The translations under genes were made by a program, and so were the position numbers. A DNA stretch of 64,000 nucleotides, taken from the NCBI GenBank assembly GCA_012295275.1, contig CM022674.1, positions 9,796,001 to 9,860,000 of the forward strand, written 5' to 3'. The stretch is from Chrysomallon squamiferum. Lineage: Eukaryota > Animalia > Mollusca. The notes under the pieces are model-generated. The model was given only the letters and a program-made list of their open reading frames with translations, ran no database searches and was not told the DNA's origin. Shown here in pieces: positions 4,811-64,000 of the stretch (within the stretch, counting starts at the first letter, position 1; the number at the start of each line of letters is the position of its first letter).

Positions 4811-5239
4811 GTTAACATAGTAGCAGTCTTTTAATCGTAGTTAATATAGTTACAGTGTTTTTGTAATAATTAATATAGTAACAGGCTTTGATAATATTAT
4901 TTTAATAATGTTTAATATAGTATCAGTGTATTAATTAATAGTTGATATAGTTAGCTTTGCAACAGTTACATTATTTTTGTTTAAAGAAAACAATATCTGT
5001 CTGGTTATTTTGGTGACATGATATGTTTATGGTAAGTCACGAACATCTGATTTGTCACTGTGCAAGCTTATTACAGTTGTGAATAGTTATATAATTCAAT
5101 GTGCATATACACAATTCTTTTTGTATATTATTATTCCAGAATGAAGGAAAACAGTTACTAAAAAGGTTATACCGAAAGGAAACAAGCGAATGTTGTTGTT
5201 GTTTTTGAATCTGTATAAAACAGAAGTAAAGTTGAAGTT

Positions 5240-6985
5240 ATGTTAAAAGAGACGTCTACTGCAGAAAGTGTTATAGAAAGCCTTATTCTAATAATTATCT
5301 GGTTTTTGGCCTTCTTCGGAAATGTTTCACTATGGTTCATAATTCTGCGGACTCGCTCTTTGCGGGAACAGTCGTACCACATGCTTCTCATCCTGTCATT
5401 CGCAGACATCCTCGTGTCCGTCGTCAGTATTCCGTTCACGATTTTCACTGTTATAAAAGGTTACTGGGTGTTTTCCGGCGATATGTGCAAGGTGGTCGGG
5501 TTTCTTACCATGCTAACGTTGATTGCCAGTGTGATGTCGTTGGGAGTTATCAGTCTGAATCGTTATGTGAAAATCTGTAAGACTCGTTACTACCAACGAA
5601 TATACACAGGAAGAAATGTCATCTTCATTGCAATAGGTAAGTTGGGGAAACCATTTACATTTTTTTTAAATTTTTATTCTAATATTATTATTACTGATCT
5701 TCTATGTATATATATATATATCTATATACTGGCCCATGTATGAATGGAAGATGTAGAAACCGATAATTATAACAGTAACAGTAAAAGTTACGGCAGTAAT
5801 CATAGTAGTAGTTAGTACTAGCAGCAATAGTAGCAGCAACAGCAGCAGTAGAAGTAATAGTAGCAGCAGTTATTTTTAGTAGAACTGAAGCAGTGATAGT
5901 AATAGTAGTAGTAATAATAATACTAATAACAACAGTAATAGTATTCTTAGTAACAGTAGCAGGAGGAGGAGATAGTTACTAAGACTGGTATTAGGTTGTA
6001 TTAGTTTAAAATTTATTTTTGTCTTGCAGGTGTTTGGTGTTTATCATTTTTGCTTTCCACACCTCCGCTGTTTGGCTGGGCTGGATACACTTACATCCAT
6101 AAACAGTCATTCTGTTTCTGTGACTGGAAATCTTCTCCTTCGTACACAGTCTTCATGGTTTTCGTTTGTTTCGGAGGTCCGCTGTCAGTGATGACCTTCT
6201 GTTATGTTAAAATTCTCAAAGTGTTCAGGAAAAGTACAGAACGAGTGTTTGGGAAAACGATGTTCAAATCTACTCGTTCTGTGGGCAGAGTCAGCCCTGA
6301 CCCGTACACCGTGTCGCATGGGAAAATCAGCATAAGTCTCAAGTCGATTGTGTCTGTGGAGTTCAGTAATAAAGAAACTGTCAATGAACACGAGCAGGAG
6401 AAGCCGATTGTCAGTGAACAGGAGCAGGAGAAGCCGACTGTCAGTGAACACGAGCAGGAGAAACCGACTGTCAGTGAACACGAGCAGGAGAAACCGACTG
6501 TCAGTGAACAGGAGCAGGAGAAGCCGACTGTCAGTGAACACGAGCAGGAGAAGCCGAATCTGGACTTACTCACTGTGGACAGGTATTCCAAACAGTCTGA
6601 GTCGTTTCTTCGGCAATCGGCTGAGCTGCAGCGAGCTTCCCGCAGAAAGCGAGATGAATACGTGTTAGCTCTTTCTCTAATGTTTGTCATCGTCGTGTTT
6701 GTCATTTGTTGGTTCCCTTTTTGTGTAACCATGTTTGTTACTGTATTTTCCTCCAGTGAAGTGCCGCATTGGGCAAATATGTTCACCTTATTATTGGGTT
6801 ATGCGAACAGCTGCTGCAATCCATTTATATATGGGTTTATGAACAAACGTTTCAAAACGGGTTATCGTAGACTGTTTAGAAATGTTTTGTCTGCTTGTTT
6901 TGAAAAGTATAAGGTTCCACTGGAAGATTCGTCTGGTGATGATGCAACGACTTACAATCATGGTAGGTCGACAGTGAAATCGTAG
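5240..6985 (+). CDS. Class A (rhodopsin-like) GPCR, melatonin-receptor-like NRY motif; 2 coding exons, ~450 aa
   Basis: Exons 5240-5636 (ATA G|gtaagt) and 6030-6985 (ttgcag|GT GTT TGG) join in phase 1. Motifs: TM1 GN, TM2 LSFAD, TM3 end SLNRYVKIC, TM4 W..S...PPLFGW, ECL2 Cys, TM6 CWFPF, TM7 NSCCNPFIY. Ligand class cannot be assigned from sequence alone. Confidence 0.93.
6377..6556 (+). repeat. In-frame coding minisatellite, 6 x 30 bp (TVSE[H/Q]EQEKP), in GPCR intracellular loop 3
   Basis: Unit ACTGTCAGTGAACA[C/G]GAGCAGGAGAA[G/A]CCG starts at 6377, 6407, 6437, 6467, 6497 and 6527. Confidence 0.97.
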
Positions 6986-11040: not shown

Positions 11041-11900
11041 ATGGCTGGTTTATAGAACGTAGAATTTGTGCAGTCAAATCGTGGAAAACAACGAGTTTTG
11101 TTAGATGATTATACGTAAAGTTGAAATCGCGTTAATGAATAAATCACATGCTGGAGATGCACCAAACGACCCTGTGTCGACAAGATCACCACAGTTGCTG
11201 GTTTTGTTACAAACAGCTTTGGCCATGACCATCCTCCGAATATTGAAACTACGGTCAAGTTTGTTAGTAGAGAAAGACAGCGCCACCCAGCAGTACCCAG
11301 AGCTGTGAATTCAACGATTACCTGGTGACGACATGGGTGGACGATGATGCAAAATTTCCTCTTCGCATGTGGAATCATTTCACCAATGCTGGCTCAAGAA
11401 CGAACAAAAATCTGGAAGGTTTCCATTCGCGAGTCAACAGGCTGCTTCGTCATCGACATCCAAACCTGTACAGATGTGTGGACTTGATCAAGGGGATAGA
11501 GAAATGCGAAAGAGCAAAGTTGGATGCTGCAGCTCCACCACCTCCACCGGGGAAGAGAGTCTACCAGGATCTCGACAGTAGAGTCAGTCGCCTCAAGCAG
11601 CAGCTCACTGACAGAACCAAAACTCTCTTGCAGTACCTGGACGCCATTGGTCACCTCAGTAATTACTTTCTGCAAAATAATTTGTTTAGTTATTTATAGA
11701 CATTCACTACATTTAGTACATGGATTATTTCGACATTTGTCATATTTGATTACTTTATGCCATAAATGACATCCACACCATTTTACAATAATAATTGGAA
11801 CAGATCATTGTAATAATTGAGGTAACGACATGCGTGTCAGTCAGACCACTGTTGTTGTTTTAACAGTTCGACCAACTGGGAACTCGACAAAACGGGAAAA
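11041..11900 (+). mobile_element. Decayed, internally deleted MULE (Mutator-like) transposase: FLYWCH domain plus C-terminal part
   Basis: Frame from ATG 11041 reads EFVQSNRGKQRVLLDDYT*S*NRVNE*ITCWRCTKRPCVDKITTVAGFVTNSFGHDHPP (FLYWCH pattern with stops). About 60 nt later comes EFNDYLVTTWVDDDAKFPLRMWNH...RTNKNLEGFHSRVNR...HPNLY, a typical MULE C-terminal motif. Short TCGAC..AACTGGGAA repeats at ~11866-11898 may be subterminal. Confidence 0.85.
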
Positions 11901-16860: not shown

Positions 16861-41641
<24,781 letters not shown>

Positions 41642-42700: not shown

Positions 42701-45700
42701 TCATCTACATTTCCATGCATTCATGTTCAGCGAGTCGAGATGTTTCACTTGACTTGCCTTCCACCTGAACCACACAAGACCAATGATGACACAGAAAACA
42801 GCCTCGATGTAGTAACCATCTACAGAAGTCACACAGCGCCCACCTGACAAATGACAATTCTGAAAACACAATTTTAACTCATAATTTATTTACTCTGAAA
42901 CTTGTCCAATAATGTTTGGAAACTTCTGTATTGAAACAAATGTACATGTATGTTACAGATGATGAGAGAAAAAATCTGCTGCTACATCTGTCTGTTCCTG
43001 TTTTAACTATTCTTAAATCTTCAGAAATGAATTATAAACATGGATTCAAGTTAATATGTTTATTCAGATCAAGTGAAAAGTGCTAAGGTTTTAGGATTTT
43101 ACAAATGTTCACCTTTAACTCCTCTGCTGTATTACAACTTCTTTCAGTTCTCGTGCATGTCTTCCATGTGAGAAAGTCTACAAGTGACAGGGCAAGCGTA
43201 CTTGGCCAGTTACCTCCTGTAAACATTAATACAAACAGTTAATTTATGAAATTATAAATATAAAGACCACCAATTTAAAATTTGAAATTAAATGTAAAGA
43301 GGAATATATTTTTTAAATCATTAAAAAGGAATAATATTGAAAATAATCTTTTTATCAGCAAAAAGTAAAAATATTTTGGAGTGAACGACAAACTGATCCA
43401 TCCGGTAGTGAAAATGCCTGTTATTAATAACAATAATTAAAAAAAAAACCTGTGCAAACTGAAGAATTAATTTTACTGTGGTGTAGATTAGAAAGAAAAA
43501 AATAATAAAAAGAAATAATAATAATTTTAGTTTACCTAAGTTGGCAAGAGTATTTAACAAAGTCATGTAAGTTCCACCAATAGCTGGATCACTGATCTTT
43601 GCTGCAAACGCCATTGTAGCAACAAACATACTGTAAACAAATACCTTAAAAACAAACAAAACAACAAACATACTGTAAACAATTACCTTAACAACTATAC
43701 TGTAAACAAATACCTTAAACAAACAAAACAACAAACATACTGTAAACAAATACCTTAAAAACAAAACAACTATAGTGTAAACAAATACCTTAAAAACAAA
43801 CAAAACAACAAATATACTGTAAACAATTACCTTAAAAACAAAACAACTATAGTGTAAACAAATACCTTAAAAACAAACAAAACAACAAATATACTGTAAA
43901 AAATACCTTAAAAACAAAACAACTACAGTGTAAACAAATACCTTAAAAACAAACAAAACAATAAATATACTGTAAACAAATACCGTAAAAACAAACAAAA
44001 AAATAAATATACTGTGTAAACAAATACCTTAAGAATGAACAAAACAATAAATATACTGTGTAAACAAATAACTTAAGAACAAACAAAACAACTATAGTGT
44101 AAACAAATACCTTAAAAACAAACAAAACATAAATATACTGTAAACAAATAACTTAAGAACAAACAAAACAATAAATATACTGTAAACAAATACCGTAAAA
44201 ACAAACAAAATAACAGATGACACTGAAAACATGTGACAACATTTAATGTACTAGCAATTAAAATATTAAAAAGTAATGAAAATTTGTAAAGTAACCTATT
44301 TCCATAATATCTCTAAATTGTTTGACAGAAATTTTTCAAAATGTTTTTTCTTTCAAATATTAAAAGTTACTTATTTATTCTATTTTGCTATAATTATTAT
44401 TATATGTAATTTTTCTGTAAAAGAAAAAAGGTTTTTGTAAAGCTAAATCCACTAAATGTTCTGACTGAAAGTATTAAAAGAGCTTACCTGATGAACTGCA
44501 TAAATGACAAGAATAACAGCGTAGAAATACCAAGGAAATTCTCCTGGTACAACCTGAACTTTGTTTGCCCAGTACACACACAATGCATACACTATACCTA
44601 GCAAAACTCTGCAAAATAAAAACAAAAAGAAAAATGAGATTATAAAGTGAATTATTTATTAAAAAATAATTTATTATAATAATATGAAATGTTAAAAAAA
44701 GAAACTGTGTAACAGACATAAATATTAAATTATAATTTATTAATAAATATGTAGATATGTATAATACTGAAAATCAACCATAGTGTTATTAAAATTTTAA
44801 TACTTTTTAAATTTCAACGTTTGTTAAAAAACAAATAAAATAATGAGTGCAGAACAAAAGTTACTAAATGCTGGGTGAATCTTCTTATATCATTGATATG
44901 TAACTCAGGAATGTCTAATGATAAAAAATTAAAAAAATTAAGATAAACTGACACATTGTTGCCAGAAATTGAATACTAAGTGATCATTTTTTTTTTTCTC
45001 TTAAAGTTAAATATCCAAAGAATTAAAAGCAATATGTAATCTACAGTTGTGAAGAATCAGTGTAGTTTTAGCAAGTAAAGTTATCTGTCACCTGTATGGC
45101 ATGGCTTTCAGGAACACATTGAGTGGTCGTGGACCTGCAGTATACTTGCTGATGATCAGTGCTAGAATTATCTGAAGAGGAACCATAGGAACAGCAAACA
45201 AAGCCAGAGTTTCCTTCCTTACTCCTGCCTCAATCAGCTTCAAACCAGTGAGAGCATCAGCAGCTGTAAATCCAATCTGTTCACAACATTAGAATAATTT
45301 TAAATACCTGGACCTTTTTAAAATAATCTAAAATTCAATATCTTCAGTTATAACATATATAAATTAAGGAAGAGAAAAAAGAAAAAAATCCATGAGAATT
45401 GAAAAACGTATCTATAAAATATTATTATAAAAACTATTTATACAGTCATCTGTCATACCCACAGACATCTTTTATACACTGAACATTCAAAAATAATACT
45501 ATTTATTACACAATTTAAATATGTAAAAATGTGTTTTCTTATTTAAAATTGATGTTTACCACTGAATGCATGTTTTCAAAATAATATATAAATGATATAT
45601 ACTGGATTGGAACAAAAACAATAGCATTTTTTAAGAGAAATTCAAAGACACTATTTAGATATTTCTACATAATTTTATTCAACCACACGTGCCATTTTGT

Positions 45701-47471
45701 TCCACTACATTTCACCATCTTTGAGACATGTAAAAATGTACTTACTTTACAGGTGAGGAGTATAAAACAGTAAGACATGACTGAGGGAAGCCGCATAACT
45801 CTGTACAGCGTCTTGTACGTGTTTATTATTCCCTGATCTGGATCAACATCTGGATCATGGGTTTCACTTTTAAATATCCAAACCAGGGTTGTAGTTACAA
45901 AAAAAACAATTCCCCAGAAATAAAGGAAACCTAAAAATAAAAATGATATGTAATAAGTGTTAGTCGTAATTTCTGAATTGTAACTTGAATATTTATATTA
46001 GTGAATTTATTTATTTTTCTTCTGCAATTATCACTGATGTGTACACATACACACAGACAACTATGCATATCATATCAATATTAATTAAAATTATTAAAAT
46101 AAATAACAAATCCTACATGCTCAGGTTCTGTACATCCTGACATAAATACAAATATAAATATTTTAGACTAATAAAGACTATGAGTATTAAACAGAGTACA
46201 AACCTGCCAAAGTGACAAGTCCTACATCCTCAGGTTGAGATCTCAGATATCTATTACAGAACTCTGCTGATTCCAGGGCCAAAAATACAACGTTGCCGAG
46301 AAAATAGCCAGCAGTTTGACCTGCAGAATTACATGTACTCGCCCATCCAACATTTTTCCTATAATTTAACATTAGCAGTAAAAGAAACAGCTTATCATGA
46401 AGTAAATCAGCCAAAAGTTATTATATTCGCAAAACACAATCATTCATATAATTTACTAGATAAGTGTAACTACTACAGAAAAGACGACATCACTGAAACT
46501 ACTTGTACAGGCTGTACTTTCAGTAAATGAAAACTTTTTATGGGATTATTGTAATATTAACAAATAATTTATAAGATTGAAATAATAAAATTTAAAATTC
46601 TAATTAGTATGTTATTTTAAACATTTTATTTAAAAGATATCTTTGGTATCCTAACATTTAAATTTTTAGAAAAAAAACTTTGTTTTAATTTAAAATAATA
46701 ATAATGTCAAATTAACTGAATTCATCTCTAAACGAATTAGGCAATCGTACACATTCTGTTAGGAATTTTTTATTTCTGGAATGGCATAAGCTTCCTGATT
46801 TTGATATTTTATTGTGTTTTGGGGTTTTTTTAATAAAAAGAATTTGAAAAATATACAAAATATATATTTTTTAACTAACTGTAAACTCACCTAGATAACA
46901 TGGTCAGTGCCCAACCATCTACAGCTATATCTTGAGTAGCAGCAAGGAAATTCAACATAAAGAAAATTGATGTCAACAACAAAATATTAACTGATGCACT
47001 TTGGTCTGAATCTCCAAGCACATCAGTCACATGACCTGACAACACAAACATGAATATTCCAATGAGATACTGAGTGGGAACCAACCAAGTTTTTCTCCGT
47101 CCAAAGTACATGCTGTATATGGAATCAACAAGTGGTGCCCAAATCAGTTTCAGACTGAATGGCCAGTAAACGAAGCTGAACACTGCCTGCTCCTTATAGC
47201 TGACCTTTCTACTGGAAAGTAACATGGGAATACTCCCTGCCAGGCCAAGAGGAATTCCCTGTAGTACATACAAAAACATAAGTAAAGCAATACTTCCATA
47301 GTCACCTTTAAGTGAGCCATTATGACGATGGTGAATTTCATCATCATCACCATCGTGGACAACACTGGCTGACATTGGAATGTGTGGATACACAGCGTTT
47401 GTTTCTAGATCAGGCTCCTGCACATAGACAGCACTTCGTCTTCTCACAGAGTTTGAGTTAGTGTTTGACAT
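42701..47471 (-). CDS. SLC33A1: Acetyl-coenzyme A transporter 1 (AT-1), 8 coding exons, ~532 aa
   Basis: Exons 47471-46891, 46358-46204, 45930-45746, 45276-45092, 44608-44488, 43644-43536, 43216-43113, 42859-42701 are all GT-AG and phase-consistent. Motifs LYVLQGIPLGLAGSIP, WPFSLKLIWAPLVDS, FLAATQDIAVDGWALTMLSR, NVGWASTCNSAGQTAGYFLG, SDPAIGGTYMTLLNT, DGYYIE. Confidence 0.97.
43620..44210 (-). repeat. ~15-copy 27-44-bp tandem array made of the SLC33A1 exon 6 splice acceptor plus the first exon bases
   Basis: Minus-strand unit TTTTGTTTGTTTTTAAG|GTATTTGTTTACAGTATGTTTGTTG. The last copy is the predicted real intron/exon junction at 43645/43644. Confidence 0.95.
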
Positions 47472-48655
47472 TTTTTTTATTAAATGACTTAAAGTCTGTG
47501 CTAGCTTGATTAATTTCAGTTTGAATAATTTTAACATGAAATGTAAACAATCAGGCACCTTTTAACTGGCATCATGTTGTATCTGAAAGTAAATAATTAA
47601 ATTATTAAAATAACTGTTTATTATTCATCCTGCAAAGATGTGAAAAATACAAATCACATAAACTGAAGATTATTATGCATGTCTGAAGATAAGTATCTGG
47701 GAAACAAACTCACTGCCAGCTCACTATTGATCTTTGAGCAGACTTTATTTATAATTTGTTCTGCTGTGAAACAACCAGTGACCTACTTTGTTCTAATCAT
47801 AAAATAACACAAAACAAACATATCAGCAGCATCAAATAAAATACATATTTTTATCTGGCAGTGAATTACCAGAACTGATCAAATAATGTGTTTTCATTCA
47901 TCATTTATTTCATACAATGATACTTTGTAGCTAATGAGTCACCTCTGAATATTAAAACACTTTTGAAGGATTATATTTTACTTTTTATGATAAAAACTAT
48001 GAAGAATGAACTTTGAACATTGTGATATTCATGTCAGCATTCATAAAAATATATATTTTTTAAAATTACCATTCTTTATGACTGAACACATTTCTGTGAT
48101 TAAATTATGAATTATATATAATCAATGGTTCCCACTACCTGATCACATTACATTTTAAATCAACCATTGTTCTGATGCTTGTTTGATCACGACTAATTGT
48201 TTAAGTATCATACAAAGAGAAAAAATATATATTCATATACGAATATTCACTTATACTGCAGTGTGCATAAGCCTGGAAAAAGTAATATATGTCTGCTATA
48301 ACTTATAAGGAGAAAACTTTCATACCACTTGCCAGTAACATGATAATTTACTTTTGTTTTTGTTTCTAATTTTTTTAATTACCATCTGAAAAATTAAGGA
48401 TGCTTATACTAATTTAATAACTGCTACTAGTAGTAACTCAACTACTTAACTCTTAACTCAGCAATAACTGCGTTTAGGAACGCTAAAACTAACTTGTAAA
48501 ACAATGTCAAAGGAGAAAATATTTTTATAAACAAAGACATTTCTTCACCATGAATATTAAAAATGACCTCGTATTATTAACGAAAACATTCTGATTGCAT
48601 ATGCTTCACTTTTAAAGTATATTCAAATGTACGCTATCACAACAACCGCTTCTAC

Positions 48656-48842: not shown

Positions 48843-51800
48843 ATGGATGTTGTTGCGAGGCAGACGCTAAATCGTACCTGTTTTGGATGTTTCTTGAAGA
48901 TACATCCGTTATGTAATGTGAGGGTGCGACCACAGACAGTATGGGCAAAACGACTGCATTTAAACAAGGTCAGACAATAAAGAAAAATAATAAGTTTAAT
49001 TTTTAAACATTTTAAAGATTTATGGGTAAAAGTTATGCATAATACTTATAAACTTATTAGATGTAAAGAGCATTAAGAAAGAAGTGTTGTATAATTATGA
49101 AGTGTCATAACAGATTCTTTTGGTTAAGAAAAATAATATTTTTTAGAACATAAATATTTTTGTAAAATGTTTTCATCGAAAATGATTTTAAAATAATTTG
49201 TGAAAATTGTCTTACTAGTCATATCTAGAGTTGTTGTTGTTGCATAATACACATTATTATAATGCTAACGAACATTAAATTTTTTTTAATCGAGTTGGTT
49301 AAACATAATAATTTCAACTAAATAACATTTGGTAACTAGTCATTATGTCAGTTTCTGATTTTATGATAATCCATATGATAAAAAAAAAAAAAAATACATT
49401 TTGGTAAATTTTGACATTAATAATGATAAATAAGAAAAATATATAAAGAAAAAAAGAAAAATAATAATAATAAATAATAAAAGATTTAAATCAACAGCCA
49501 GCTTTTAAAATAAGTAAAATTTTAGATAAGCTTGTAATTAGTCAAATATATTCACAAAAAAGAATAAAAAAATTTAATCCTAAAGTGGATAAGTAGTATT
49601 TTTTTTTATTTGATCTTATTTTAAATAGAATTATTCAAGATTGCATTTTTTATTTTTCAGATTAAAATGGTTATGAGATATGAATGAGGTTATTCAAGTA
49701 TATATTTGTTAATGATTGATAAATATACTTTAGTTTACACTTCAGAAAATGAATGTGTATATTTGTCTTTCAATGACATGTAGTTGCTGACCTTGAACTT
49801 TATATAAATTCATATGACTTTTTGCCAGAAAAATAAACAAGAATTGAAAAACTTAACAATAATATATTATTATAAAAACTATTTATACACAGTCATCTGT
49901 CAAATTAAAAAAAATCTATATTACTCTTTATATTTTTAAAATTAACTTGTTACAGCTGATAAGTATATTAAAAATTACATTTAATATTTTGTTTTTTTCT
50001 TTTTCTTTTTAATGTTTTAGATAGAAAACCAGAAACCTCTGATGTCAAAGAATGGATCTCAAAATGGTGGAATTTTGAAATCTGTGCAAAGACGTTTCGC
50101 TTCTGAGAGTGCTCCACCAAAAAAAGACAAGAAAAAAACTCTAGTGGTATAATTAACTCAACAAAATAACCATCCAGCAGAAAAAGTTAACTTTAGTAAA
50201 ATAATTTACAGTATTCTTTGCTTTTTCTTGAAAAACAATATTTATCTGTATGATAATTTATTACAAACTGAATATTTGTCAATTTTATGATTAAGAATGT
50301 AACTGTATTTAACATTTACTGCAGCTTTAGCAACATTTTGTGTTTTTCAGCCTCTCACGTGGAAGAGTGTCTTATTTTTTGGAATTGTTGGAGGAATTTC
50401 ATATCTTGGTGTCCGATATGTGAGGAAAGAGAAAGAACTTCGTAAGAGTCAAATTTAATAAACAGTTGAAATAAAATTTTCTTTGTGATAAAGTTTAATG
50501 TTAAACAGTTGGATCTGTCTCTGTGATAAGTTTTGTGTCTTTGCTGTGATGATGCAATATTACAACTGTAACCTTTAAAGGGTGCCAGCAATGAGACAAA
50601 CAAAGTGATAAACATCCTTTCATTGTATTAAAATTTTATAAATCTATATTTAATTCTTCTTTTTTAAATTATATAAGTACTTTTTAATTATTTAAAAATA
50701 TATATATACTTATATATGTTATTAGGAGTCTTTATTATATGAAGTGCCAAACTCTGACCCGCATTACAAAATATTATTTTTGTTTGTAAATTGTTGTTAT
50801 AACTCAGTTAATTTTATTCATTTCCACAACTTTTCAAATAAATAAAAATGATTGACTCTTATAATAGATTTTAAAAACATTTTAAATTAAACTTTGAAAT
50901 CATCAGTACAGACATAAACTTTCCACAAAACAGTTTTTTAATATTTTCTTTTCAGAAATGGCACAGGAAAGAAGTAAATCTCTTGGTAAGGCAGCCATTG
51001 GGGGTCCCTGGGAGCTGACCGACCACGATGGTAAAAAGAGGACTAGTGCCGACTACCTCGGAAAGTGGGTTATCCTGTACTTTGGATTTACTCACTGCCC
51101 TGATGTGTGTCCAGAAGAACTGGAGAAACTAGTGGAAATAGTTAATACTGTTGGTATGTGTTAACTTAGTGTGCCAGATTTAAACACACAGACTTGAATG
51201 ATGTTATATTTTTCTTACATGATGAAGAATCTTTTGTTATGCTGTGAATATATTTATTTTCAAAAGTAGTTATTGGTGACATAATAATGGTTAAAAAAAT
51301 AATAATAATATTAATAATGAACAATCCACGAATCCACCAAAACAGATTAATTAATGTAAAATTTCTTAATTTATATACAAAGTGAATTAGTAATGGTCAT
51401 GGAAACTGATTAAGATTCTAAGAATAACGTAATAATTTTTAAATATTTATGTCTGTAGATGGTATGGAAGCTCTCCCCAATGTTACACCTTTGTTCATCA
51501 CAGTGGACCCAGACCGAGACACACCGAAGGTGATAAAAGAGTACTGTGCTGGTAAGGCAGACTGTTTTCACTGTTCACACTCTTTTATAATTTGAAAATA
51601 CCACATTTATTGTTTTAATTATTTTAATCTGTTTAATATTTACCAATCTGAATTCAAGAAACTTTTTTTTATAAAAATGAAACAGTGACAGCCAAGTCAT
51701 AGAGTTCTGATTTTGTGTGACTGTTTTTATATGTAGAATGTGGTGTTTCTGTGACTATGAGTGTATTATTCATCAATTAATTTTTGCTTCATGAAGATAA

Positions 51801-53966: not shown

Positions 53967-58707
<4,741 letters not shown>

Positions 58708-59979
58708 AATGTACACTAGCGTTTACTAGTTTTAGCTTTCACGATAGCAAATACCAAACAAAATATATTTCGTTGTTGTTCTTGTCTGCAATTGTTGTAC
58801 TGTCTCTGCAGCTCCGCCTGCAAGCAGGAATAACACTGTTTGGCTACTGTGGTTTTTCATAAAGGTATTTATTAATTTATTTTACTTTATTATATTTTTT
58901 TTGTAACTATTTTATTCTGTTCGTGAGACTAATGTTCTAGCTTTACATAAATTATGTACCATTGACGAAGAAAGTGCTTATTCAGCTGGACTAAAATTAT
59001 TTAATTGTTAGAAAATTAAATACTACTACTATTAGAACTAGCACCTTTACTACTGCTATGTCTCTGTTAATTTTTCTCTTAAGCAAACGTTGTACCATTT
59101 GCTTTTATTAAAAATAGGCGCACCTCAGCAATTTATTTATGTATGTCAGTAGAAAAATACTTTCTAATTCATGGATTTTATTTCTTACGTTTTCCCCCCT
59201 CTCGTTATTAAATATTTGAATAATGTTATCCTCCGAGCAGGATATTTCTCAAACTGTCCATTAAAAAAAATAATCTGTTACTTTTTACCTAATTTCACTA
59301 ACTTGTCAAGTGTTATTTTGTAATATATTTTTATTTGAATTGATGATCTGAGCCATGAATTAAAACGGTATCAGCTTTGATTAGAAAAAGTATATAGCTA
59401 ACTGTTAATTTGGTTGAAGAAATAATAATAATAATAATAATGGTAATGGTAATAATAAAATCCTCTTTCTATCTATATCTTTCTCTGAGAGAGCTGGATT
59501 AGTTTGTTTTATCAGTACTGACAGGTAAATTAAGTATTATTAAGTGGAAATTGTCATTTTCCTCTAGCTTTGTTTCAAATGTTAGGAGAGTTAAAAATAT
59601 CCATCAGATAACAAATACCCGAATGGACTTTAGTCTGGTAGTGTCACAGAAACTTATTTTTTTTTTTTTTTTTTGTCCTCCCCGATTTATCAGTTCTTTG
59701 GAAGTCCACGGCAACCAAACTATTACACCTATTACATCTATCGAACGCCCGTCTGTGTCAACATGAACAGACGTTCATCGTCAAAACAGGATTGGTTACT
59801 TTTATTTACAATTATGTAATTACTATTACTACCAATACTACCACTACAACTTTAAACTTTGTTGTTTATAATAATAATAATAAAATCAAAGAATCTTTTT
59901 TTTTTTTTAATTTCTACCCCAGTTCATAGATACTGAACTGAAAAACGTCATTAGATTAACAATAAACAAGTAATTACAT

Positions 59980-61235: not shown

Positions 61236-61372
61236 ATATGTTGTTATATTATTATTGTTGTTTACAGTGTTCAGCTAAAGTCTGCATGGGAATAAAACAT
61301 CTATGTGAAATAACTCAATTTATTTTCTACTAAAGAATAATAATTATTAGAAGATTTTAAAAGATTTCAGCA

Positions 61373-61994
61373 ATGACAGGTGTGTCAGTTTCTGTCATCG
61401 TCTTGTCGCTCTGCGTAGTTGTGGTTACTGGTCAGGCAGACTTAAACCACAGTATGACAATGGACAAACTTCCTATACGAGACAAGGCAATATACTTGGC
61501 GGACTACCTTATGAAGCATCCCGTTTTGTTTGGCCAAATAGAAAAAATCTTCTACGCAAGTAAGCCAATCCAAGAACAAGGCAGCAAAGGTCCTGGAGGA
61601 AAACTCTTACTGAACGCTGCACTGGACTATATGCCGTTGCTTCTTCAGAGTCCTGACTTTCTGGCAGACCTGAGTATCCTGGAGGACGAGATTAACAGAG
61701 TGAACCTCACTGACGTCATGATGTATCAGCAGTCGCACAATCTCAACACTTCTGATCCTCAGATGAAGAAGATGTTTTCTCAAGCGATGTTGGCTAGAGT
61801 TAACAAGCTGAGGACGATCAGGAGGATACTTATGCGCAAAAGCTTCCAAGATAGACTCGTTCGCCATAAGAACGACTCTGTTTCTGATCAGTGTTACGCC
61901 GAGACGATGGACTTCATGGACGGTTTGGTGGGAATTCAGATTCCAGACAAGTCCAATCCGTTTAACTTTAAAACTCTGCCCTGGGCTATCAAAA
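61373..61994 (+). CDS. First coding exon (copy A) of a putative NRF-6 / O-acyltransferase-like protein
   Basis: Acceptor atttcag|caATG; signal peptide MTGVSVSVIVLSLCVVVVTG; ends with SVSDQCYAETMDFMDGL...LPWAIK A|gtaagt, matching the start of the NRF domain (VS..C....L...WA..M.DA). Downstream exons are not in the window. Coding status is well supported; the family assignment is moderate. Confidence 0.75.
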
Positions 61995-62759
61995 GTAAGT
62001 CACACAAATTTTATCTTTACCTTATAAATTATTAAAACCTTTCATACCGTAGATGTGTTGTTGTCGTTACTGTTATTGTAATAGTATTTATTGTTATTGC
62101 ATTATTTATTATTTTTATTATCATTGTATTATTATTTTTATTATTATTATTAATATTGTTGTTGTTGTTGTTTGTTGTTGTTGTTGTTGTACTTTTTTCT
62201 ACTAGAAATATTTTTAATACAAACTCATAATTCAAAAATTAAATAACTGAAGAGATAAAACGCATTAATTAATGCTATATGTAATGATGACGAATTTATT
62301 ATCAAAACATTGGTATGTATATATATATATATATAGATAGATATTATTATTATTATTATTATTAAACATAGATAATCAAAGCTGATATCTACTGAGATAT
62401 ATATATATATATATATACTGTATAACCAAGTGTTTCTTGACTTCGATAGATTGAAATACAATATAATATTGAAGGATTTAAGTATTATAATTAGTATCTG
62501 AGGATTTTGAAACTTCTCCTTAAGGCATTATTATATTAAAATTAAAATTATTGGCTGTTAAAATGCATCCAGATAATCTACACAACGTACTATCAAGTTA
62601 TGCATGCAGGAACCAGTGTCTCATCTATATGCTCTCTGTATACTGTATAATGTGTATATGTATGTATGTGTGTGTGTTGTGTGTGTTTGTGTGTGTGTTT
62701 GTGTGTGTGTTTTGTGTGTGTGTGTGTATATATGTATATATAATGTGTGTTTGTGTATG

Positions 62760-62799
<40 letters not shown>

Positions 62800-63024
62800 A
62801 CATACACACATATTATACAGATATAAACAAAGCGGATAGATGTGACACTGGTTCCTTCATTTTCTATTCGAACATTATTAAAATAACAAACGTTACCCTT
62901 TTTATAATTTTATATCCTTATACTACTTTTATCTTTAAATCAAATATGAGGCATATATTTAATTATATATATATATATAGATCTGTATAATGTGTGTGTA
63001 TGTGTATATGTGTGTATATGTGTT

Positions 63025-63067
<43 letters not shown>

Positions 63068-63275
63068 TATAATGTGTGTGTGTGTCTGAGTATATGTATG
63101 AGTAGGCATATAAATCACTTGATCTTCTTATGCATGTGTATGTGGTCCAAGTTTTGCCATTCTTTCTTTTCATCTTTCTGTCTCGCTCTCTTTCTTTTCA
63201 TCTTTCTGTCTCGCTCTCTTTCTTTCTGTACATGTCGTGTGTACCTATGCGTGTATATTAGTGTTCGTTCGTTGT

Positions 63276-63307
<32 letters not shown>

Positions 63308-63622
63308 CTAAAGACCGTGTTCAGATATGTTCAGGATAATCTATTAGCAGATGAGGACAAAGTTCTTCCGAGATGTCCCAGTTGTTTTTCTATGTTACCG
63401 TGTTAGTATAAAAATACAGAATATCGTATCTGTGAAAACAAAGCTTGTGGTTTGCTGGTAGATAGTCCGATATTGTTTACATTATTATGCAGTAACCTGC
63501 AACTGAGAAATACAATTTTTAATCAGAGAAAAATTGTGATAATTATCTTTATTTAACAAGAAGTGAAGCAAACACAGGACTCGAAGATCGTATAAAGTAA
63601 AAACATCTTGAAATTTCCAAAA

Positions 63623-64000
63623 ATGAAAATGAATTATTTGTTTATAATGGTGTCTGTAGTTTCTGCCTGTTTCGTATTGATCGACGGACAGGCAGACTTG
63701 AGCAGCAACAAGACAATAACAATGGACAGGTTACCACTACGAGACAAAGCGATTTACCTCGCTGCTTACCTTGTTGACCACCCAGCTCTGTTCTCCCAGT
63801 TAGAAAACATCTACTCAGCCAGTCAGCCGCTGAGACAAGAAGCAAGTAAAAGTCCTGCAGGCAGTTTACTGAAGAATGCCATACTGGATTTGATTCCTGT
63901 TCTTCTTCAGAATAAGGAATTCCTCTCTGATTTGGCCGTCCTGGAAGACGAGATGAGTAAAGTGAATCTAACTGACGTGATAAGTTATAAGAAGATGCAC
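63623..64000 (+). CDS. Paralogous first coding exon (copy B) of the same NRF-6-like locus, truncated by window end
   Basis: Absent from the ORF track. Reads MKMNYLFIMVSVVSACFVLIDGQADLSSNKTITMDRLPLRDKAIYLAAYLVDHPALFSQLENIYSASQPLRQEASKSPAGSLLKNAILDLIPVLLQNKEFLSDLAVLEDEMSKVNLTDVISYKKMH; about 61 of ~103 aligned residues identical to copy A by hand count. Confidence 0.88.
   Translation, partial: MKMNYLFIMVSVVSACFVLIDGQADLSSNKTITMDRLPLRDKAIYLAAYLVDHPALFSQLENIYSASQPLRQEASKSPAGSLLKNAILDLIPVLLQNKEFLSDLAVLEDEMSKVNLTDVISYKKMH

What the first reader, a model, noticed from the sequence alone, without database searches (positions are those of the whole stretch)
61373..64000. Tandem paralogous signal-peptide first exons with no gene body between them: candidate variable-first-exon cassette for an NRF-6-like acyltransferase
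Seen: two intact reading frames 2.25 kb apart (61373 and 63623), each with its own ATG and a different signal peptide, followed by a homologous domain (~59% identity by hand, mostly conservative changes, no stops). Copy A ends at a strong phase-1 donor in the middle of a putative NRF domain (WAIK A|gtaagt). The 1.6 kb between the copies is microsatellite and AT-rich DNA in which I found no continuing exon. Known: NRF-6/OACYL proteins need many further exons for the rest of the NRF domain and the Acyltransferase-3 membrane domain; vertebrate UGT1A and clustered protocadherin loci use arrays of variable first exons spliced to shared constant exons. Inference: copy A must splice over copy B to a shared body, giving one enzyme with interchangeable lumenal N-terminal domains under separate promoters. 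I do not know of this arrangement being described for this family.
Basis: partly seen in the sequence, partly recalled or inferred. Interest (0 to 1): 0.85.

Follow-up and report, generated by a model that had tools for sequence, protein, structure and literature searches.

The report
Snail acyltransferase with duplicated N-terminal exon
A snail membrane acyltransferase gene carries two old, diverged copies of its signal-peptide exon side by side; RNA shows the first copy spliced to a next exon that is not found between the copies, so the second copy likely serves as an alternative N-terminus on the same enzyme, an arrangement known from other gene families.

Summary
Two homologous signal-peptide frames lie 2,250 nt apart (54% identical, dN/dS about 0.2), and no gene body lies between them. 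One RNA contig shows copy A spliced at the predicted donor (61994) to an exon reading M-F-D-A-M-G-K-P. That is the NRF-domain exon of mollusc NRF-6/OACYL acyltransferases, and it is absent from the window, so B most likely lies in the intron after A. The open question is therefore B, not A. B is intact over its 126 visible codons in two independent DNA runs. It had no contig in the single shallow RNA run, and its donor (about 64256) lies outside the window. An unnamed relative appears to carry the same pair, with the B-like copy broken. In other molluscs this exon also heads unrelated gene bodies. Best reading (0.5): a two-way alternative N-terminal exon on one shared enzyme body. Rivals: B heads its own product (0.22) or is a dying copy (0.2). 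Only two copies are seen, separate promoters are untested, and the architecture is known from other families.

The parts
61343..61994 (+). Exon A: at least 30 nt of 5' UTR, ATG at 61373, signal peptide (~1-20), helical lumenal domain (~21-170), first ~33 residues of the NRF domain; ends in phase 1
   Evidence: RNA contigs cover 61343-61687 and 61887-61994; 44% identical over 189 aa to the abalone NRF-6-like N-terminus; AlphaFold model mostly helical, mean pLDDT 68
61995..62000 (+). Splice donor of exon A, used in RNA
   Evidence: RNA contig leaves the DNA at 61994 with 60 loose letters in the frame M-F-D-A-M-G-K-P-R-G
61995..63622 (+). Start of the intron after A: microsatellites and AT-rich DNA, would hold B's promoter or acceptor; no exon of the gene body
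63623..64000 (+). Copy B: ATG, signal peptide and 5' part of the helical domain; open to the window end; donor expected near 64256 if as long as A
   Evidence: no difference inside the frame in DNA contigs of runs X5 and X6, no contig in RNA run X9
53967..58707 (-). PSMC2/RPT1-like proteasome ATPase gene, head to head with A; closes the array on the 5' side
   Evidence: exon frames, start codon; gene name recalled from the peptides, not from a database call

Best explanation
This is the 5' end of a gastropod NRF-6/OACYL-type membrane acyltransferase gene whose signal-peptide exon was duplicated in tandem; copy A is spliced to an NRF-domain exon absent from the window, and copy B likely serves as an alternative N-terminal exon joined to that same exon. 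Shown: two homologous frames, A's splice junction, and no body between the copies. Inferred: the next exon lies 3' of B, so A transcripts remove B with the intron. Transcripts that start at B would use B's own donor, the nearer one, and reach the same acceptor. The two products would share the rest of the NRF domain and the Acyl_transf_3 membrane domain. They would differ in signal peptide, a ~150-residue helical lumenal domain and the first ~33 NRF residues, which would change where the enzyme is expressed and perhaps which lipid substrate or partner it meets. Whether the choice is made by two promoters or by two acceptors behind a shared leader exon is open. B is likely the minor, dispensable form.
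For: RNA junction at 61994 in 1 contig of 1 RNA run. Its peptide matches the Gigantopelta aegis NRF-6-like body at 8 of 9 residues, the best score among the stored proteins, and its DNA is absent from the window with up to 3 mismatches. B was kept under purifying selection: dN/dS about 0.2. In simulated drift its frame stayed open in 178 of 1,000 runs at 0.1 substitutions per site (4 of 1,000 with indels) and in 42 of 1,000 at 0.2 (0 with indels). In an unnamed relative, A-like and B-like proteins sit on contigs of the same lengths (475,636; 545,507; 6,016 nt; same contig inferred from length). The B-like C-terminal piece ends W-A-I-N then S-K, the same read-through as A's donor, so B-type exons likely had the same phase-1 end. 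All full-length gastropod orthologues retrieved carry one such N-terminal module before the junction. Dead variable exons are common in vertebrate UGT1 clusters (PMC1885805, passages), so a broken copy in a relative fits.
Against: No RNA contig on B (one run at depth ~4, so weak). B's last ~85 codons, its donor and the next exon are outside the window. The relative's B-like copy is split in two at about A residues 133-142 in the two long contigs and ends there in the short one. It varies 2-9% between assemblies against 1-2% for the A-like copy. Among 82 stored proteins with the junction, no pair has an identical body and a homologous but different first exon. The 150 nt upstream of A and B are no more alike than shuffles (59 of 200 reach the score). 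Orthology of B to the relative's B-like copy is only moderately supported (93/94, not starred), and the same tree rejects A plus the relative's A-like copy as a clade (p-AU 0.011).
Confidence: 0.5

Rival explanations
1. B starts a different product. It would either splice to its own body, nested in A's intron or beyond the gene, or read through its donor to give a short secreted protein. A and B would then be two genes sharing a duplicated module, not one enzyme with two ends.
For: In Haliotis rufescens a 95% identical copy of this exon (196/206) heads a different body: a divergent NRF half plus EF-hands, on a contig of the same length as the acyltransferase. Related N-termini head a Ly6/uPAR body in a clam and a stalk plus membrane anchor in an oyster. 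First-exon-only gene models exist in Patella caerulea and Batillaria. It explains B's purifying selection equally well.
Against: It needs A's donor to skip a same-strand body with its own phase-1 acceptor. Those other bodies are gene models that I could not check against RNA.
Confidence: 0.22
2. B is a dying or dead partial duplicate. It worked for most of its history but is now silent, as its counterpart in the relative appears to be, and the gene has a single working N-terminal exon, A.
For: No RNA contig on B while A has two. The relative's B-like copy is broken at a point just beyond the part of B that the window shows. B has a long branch (0.33-0.34).
Against: 126 open codons with ATG and signal peptide, unchanged in two independent DNA runs. 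Loss of function must be recent, under about 0.1-0.2 substitutions per site. One shallow RNA run cannot show silence.
Confidence: 0.2
3. The adjacency is an assembly fault or the copies are joined to each other: either A's own body was lost or misplaced at the microsatellites between the copies, or A splices into B to give a doubled lumenal domain.
For: Bivalve relatives have internal repeats of the module. An in-frame AG exists inside B's signal peptide at 63660.
Against: A-like and B-like proteins sit on a 6,016-nt contig in a relative. The window has no N. The RNA joins A straight to the NRF exon. The AG at 63660 scores at the 53rd percentile of AG sites.
Confidence: 0.08

Closest known systems
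NRF-6 / NDG-4 / OACYL family (NRF domain PF20146 plus Acyl_transf_3 PF01757), mollusc clade with a long N-terminus: Haliotis XP_067659498, XP_046381394; Gigantopelta aegis XP_041377307
   Same: Signal peptide, pre-NRF helical domain, junction W-x-x-x | M-x-D-x-x-G-K at the same place. The C. elegans members are predicted acyltransferases tied to lipid transport and pheromone synthesis (PMC3919970, PMC12799122; passages).
   Different: Retrieved orthologues have one N-terminal exon per body; expansions seen in Mya and Ostrea are near-copies in both N-terminus and body. The G. aegis model begins with an unrelated 47-residue stretch, so it probably misses this exon.
Vertebrate variable-first-exon clusters: UGT1, GCNT2, clustered protocadherins
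   Same: A large exon with signal peptide and lumenal domain duplicated in tandem upstream of shared exons; birth and death of copies (PMC1885805, passages).
   Different: Only two copies seen and only one shown to splice; no shared upstream motif found; own promoters untested; different enzyme family, in a mollusc.
[quoted passage not shown]
   Same: Two homologous N-termini on one body: 39 of 236 human cases are N-terminal (PMC8373072, passages). sDscam-beta6 has just two cassettes with their own promoters (PMC4835542, abstract and sections 9 and 11), so the arrangement is known in invertebrates.
   Different: Not reported for NRF-6/OACYL or in molluscs in my searches.

Membership tests
NRF-6/OACYL acyltransferases | N-terminal signal peptide | tested here: met
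   hydrophobic N-termini in A and B ending at G-Q-A-D as in orthologues; by hydropathy and alignment only
NRF-6/OACYL acyltransferases | NRF domain (PF20146) | tested here: inconclusive
   no Pfam hit on A or B alone; A 174-207 aligns to the start of the orthologue's NRF domain, and the RNA junction continues with the NRF peptide; the rest lies outside the window
NRF-6/OACYL acyltransferases | Acyl_transf_3 membrane domain with the S-Y-H motif | not testable with these tools
   no body in the window, no genome held; present in the orthologues
Variable-first-exon cluster (UGT1/GCNT2/Pcdh type) | Two or more homologous exons in tandem with no constant exon between them | tested here: met
Variable-first-exon cluster (UGT1/GCNT2/Pcdh type) | Variable exons end at the same place and phase | tested here: inconclusive
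   A ends in phase 1; B's end is outside the window; the relative's B-like piece shows the same read-through
Variable-first-exon cluster (UGT1/GCNT2/Pcdh type) | Each variable exon is spliced separately to the same constant exon | tested here: inconclusive
   shown for A; no RNA contig on B
Variable-first-exon cluster (UGT1/GCNT2/Pcdh type) | Each variable exon has its own promoter | not testable with these tools
   contigs show no start sites; upstream 150 nt no more alike than shuffles; bivalve isoforms hint at a leader exon in this family

The most novel reading that the evidence does not exclude
A and B are the first members of a longer array of interchangeable lumenal domains, each under its own promoter, on one Acyl_transf_3 enzyme: a UGT1-like way of diversifying lipid or small-molecule acylation in a snail. 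The exon used is a phase-1 module of no known fold that molluscs have also attached to EF-hand, Ly6 and stalk bodies.
Probability: 0.12. Interest if true: 0.7.

Novelty: new member of a known kind. Interest (0 to 1): 0.42.

Why it matters
If B is confirmed, this is a natural domain swap on an enzyme family whose substrates are mostly unknown. Two N-termini on one catalytic body would let one test directly what the lumenal part of NRF-6/OACYL proteins does. It would add a mollusc and a new enzyme family to the genes with duplicated alternative N-terminal exons. It also suggests why gene models in this clade lose or orphan the exon (G. aegis, Patella). With two copies and one proven junction, it is not yet a UGT1-scale system.

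Tried and rejected
No genome is held, so I could not extend past 64000. A search for longer proteins with A found none among 548 candidates (weak); the near-length search found 1 of 72. Two scans of JGI metagenomes found no locus. The AlphaFold model of A (pTM 0.44) had no Foldseek match at E <= 0.001 and a best Z of 4.9 among 48,161 chains: no fold assigned, and no evidence that the fold is new. The Atlas gave no result. Three look-ups of earlier findings were empty. Run X8 and RNA run X9 laid nothing on B, and runs X1 and X2 laid nothing on exon A although the index says they hold it, so holes in these contigs prove nothing. In the search for same-body, different-first-exon pairs, 27 of 117 candidate pairs had first exons under 88% identical. 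Of these, 3 were different abalone species, 2 were Ostrea copies with bodies 94.6% identical, and 22 involved two oyster sequences whose bodies are 90.5% identical to the one reference checked. All were rejected. A strong donor at 59525 and AG sites upstream of both ATGs could mark a shared leader exon, but such scores arise by chance at this rate. Shared 9-mers upstream of A and B have E 0.62. Haplotype duplication was rejected on dS.

Full report
Observation. The window holds two homologous frames on the + strand: A from 61373 and B from 63623, the latter cut by the window end. They are 54% identical over 124 residues and 59% over the 102 mature residues, and no third copy exists in the 64 kb. 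DNA similarity is limited to the coding parts (66% over 318 nt). dN is 0.30-0.35 and dS 1.5-1.8, so the duplication is old and was under purifying selection. Independent DNA runs confirm both frames: X5 differs from A at one synonymous third position, and X5 and X6 show no difference in B's frame.

Family. A alone has no significant Pfam hit. A full HMMER search found 18 relatives at E <= 0.001; the named ones are all molluscs. The best full-length ones are abalone NRF-6/OACYL-like proteins with NRF at residues 174-304 and Acyl_transf_3 at 483-870. A matches their first 206 residues at 44-45%. So exon A encodes a signal peptide, a ~150-residue domain predicted to be helical (no fold match) and the first ~33 residues of NRF. 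Across orthologues this part changes faster than the body (75-88% against 88-91% among three abalones; 30% against 53% for abalone and limpet).

RNA. One RNA run holds the region. Two of its contigs lie on exon A, at 61343-61687 and 61887-61994, at depth about 4, and none on the flanking DNA laid. The second contig leaves the genome at 61994 and goes on for 60 letters that read M-F-D-A-M-G-K-P-R-G in frame. The peptide matches the G. aegis NRF-6-like body at 8 of 9 residues, which places the window in a gastropod near that lineage. The exon is not in the window, nor is any body exon. Unless the assembly is wrong, B therefore sits in the intron after A. This rests on one contig from one run. 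The same run laid nothing on B, which at this depth proves little.

A relative. Three unnamed assemblies hold an intact A-like frame (71% identical) on contigs of 475,636, 545,507 and 6,016 nt. B-like N-terminal pieces lie on contigs of the same three lengths, and B-like C-terminal pieces on the two long ones. I infer the same contigs from equal lengths; I saw no DNA, order or strand. The B-like N-terminal pieces share B's two-residue insertion and group with B (88/91, 93/94; neither starred). A plus B as a clade is rejected (p-AU 0.004). Against a simple picture, A plus the A-like copy is also rejected (p-AU 0.011), with A at the root on a zero-length branch next to a long outgroup branch, and B is as close to the A-like copy (62%) as to the B-like copy (58-60%). 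By identity A pairs clearly with the A-like copy (78-80% against 52-59%). The B-like copy loses homology at about A residue 133 and resumes at 143 in a separate frame that ends with the same donor read-through as A. The peptides after the break look like one inserted stretch read in two frames (inference; I recall such a peptide from a common gastropod repeat, not tested). The copy varies 2-9% between assemblies against 1-2% for the A-like copy. So the pair is likely older than the split of the two species, and the relative seems to have lost B recently. In the window's species B cannot have drifted long: its frame survives 0.1 substitutions per site in 178 of 1,000 simulations without indels and 4 of 1,000 with them.

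Mechanism. If B is transcribed and keeps its donor, the default outcome is a join to the acceptor that A uses, giving one acyltransferase body with two N-termini. That is my best reading at 0.5. The junction of A is shown; the place of the next exon, B's expression and B's junction are inferred. The upstream sequences are not alike. Dreissena models differ just before the signal-peptide ATG, which suggests a leader exon in this family, so A and B could be mutually exclusive second exons. The array is closed on the 5' side by a PSMC2-like gene whose ATG is at 58707 on the minus strand; the 3' side is unseen.

Rivals. The same exon heads unrelated bodies elsewhere: a 95% identical copy in H. rufescens leads a divergent NRF half plus EF-hands, a clam relative leads Ly6/uPAR domains, and an oyster relative leads a stalk and membrane anchor. 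B could do likewise, or be read through as a short secreted protein (0.22). B could be newly silent like its counterpart (0.2); the relative's break lies just past the part of B that the window shows. Assembly error or an A-to-B join is unlikely (0.08). No annotated mollusc isoform pair among 82 stored proteins with the junction shows the variable-exon pattern, so it is not a general trait of the clade as annotated.

Known systems. UGT1 and GCNT2 clusters have tandem variable first exons, each with a promoter, spliced to constant exons, with frequent pseudogene copies (PMC1885805, passages). Human genes hold 39 N-terminal tandem-exon substitutions among 236 (PMC8373072, passages). Chelicerate sDscam genes do the same in invertebrates, one with only two cassettes (PMC4835542, abstract and sections 9 and 11). 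C. elegans OAC/NRF-6 genes expand as whole genes and are tied to lipid transport and pheromone synthesis (PMC12799122 and PMC3919970, passages). Searches pairing the family or molluscs with alternative first exons listed nothing relevant (listings only; the library lacks most subscription papers, and I read no supplements). I do not file this as a proven variable-first-exon cluster: one defining feature is met, two are inconclusive and one is untestable.

Verdict. It is a likely new member of a known kind of gene architecture, with two copies seen. Interest 0.42.

Noticed in passing
window 53967-58707 (-): PSMC2/RPT1-like proteasome ATPase gene head to head with exon A, 2.7 kb apart (name recalled from the peptides).
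   Followed up: partly
window ~43300-47561 (-): Acetyl-CoA transporter 1 gene (Pfam Acatn, E 4e-45) about 14 kb upstream of the acyltransferase. It would supply lumenal acetyl-CoA, but the neighbourhood may be chance.
   Followed up: no
window 50898-51164 (+): Exon of an SCO1-like copper chaperone (C-P-D-V-C motif; name recalled).
   Followed up: no
window 5219-6985 (+): Two-exon rhodopsin-type GPCR with a short tandem peptide repeat between two membrane segments, probably in the third intracellular loop.
   Followed up: no
window 27692-30286 and 40643-41278 (+): An 864-codon frame with a PH domain and a further long frame that may belong to the same gene.
   Followed up: no
window 11271-11699 (+) and 54902-55419 (+): Frames that look like broken DNA-transposon remnants; the first has no Pfam hit, the second lies in an intron of the PSMC2-like gene. 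Identification recalled.
   Followed up: no
proteins P0003, P0016, P0018, P0008, P0009: The pre-NRF helical module has no Pfam family. It heads EF-hand, Ly6/uPAR and stalk-plus-anchor bodies and is repeated up to three times inside one frame in other molluscs: a candidate shuffled exon module.
   Followed up: partly
proteins P0028, P0005/P0024, P0007: Public gene models that seem to lose or orphan this exon: the G. aegis model starts with an unrelated 47-residue stretch; Patella SNE40_014374 and Batillaria BaRGS_022746 are first-exon-only models.
   Followed up: partly
window 59525: A strong GT donor between the PSMC2-like gene and A that could end a non-coding leader exon; within chance expectation.
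   Followed up: partly
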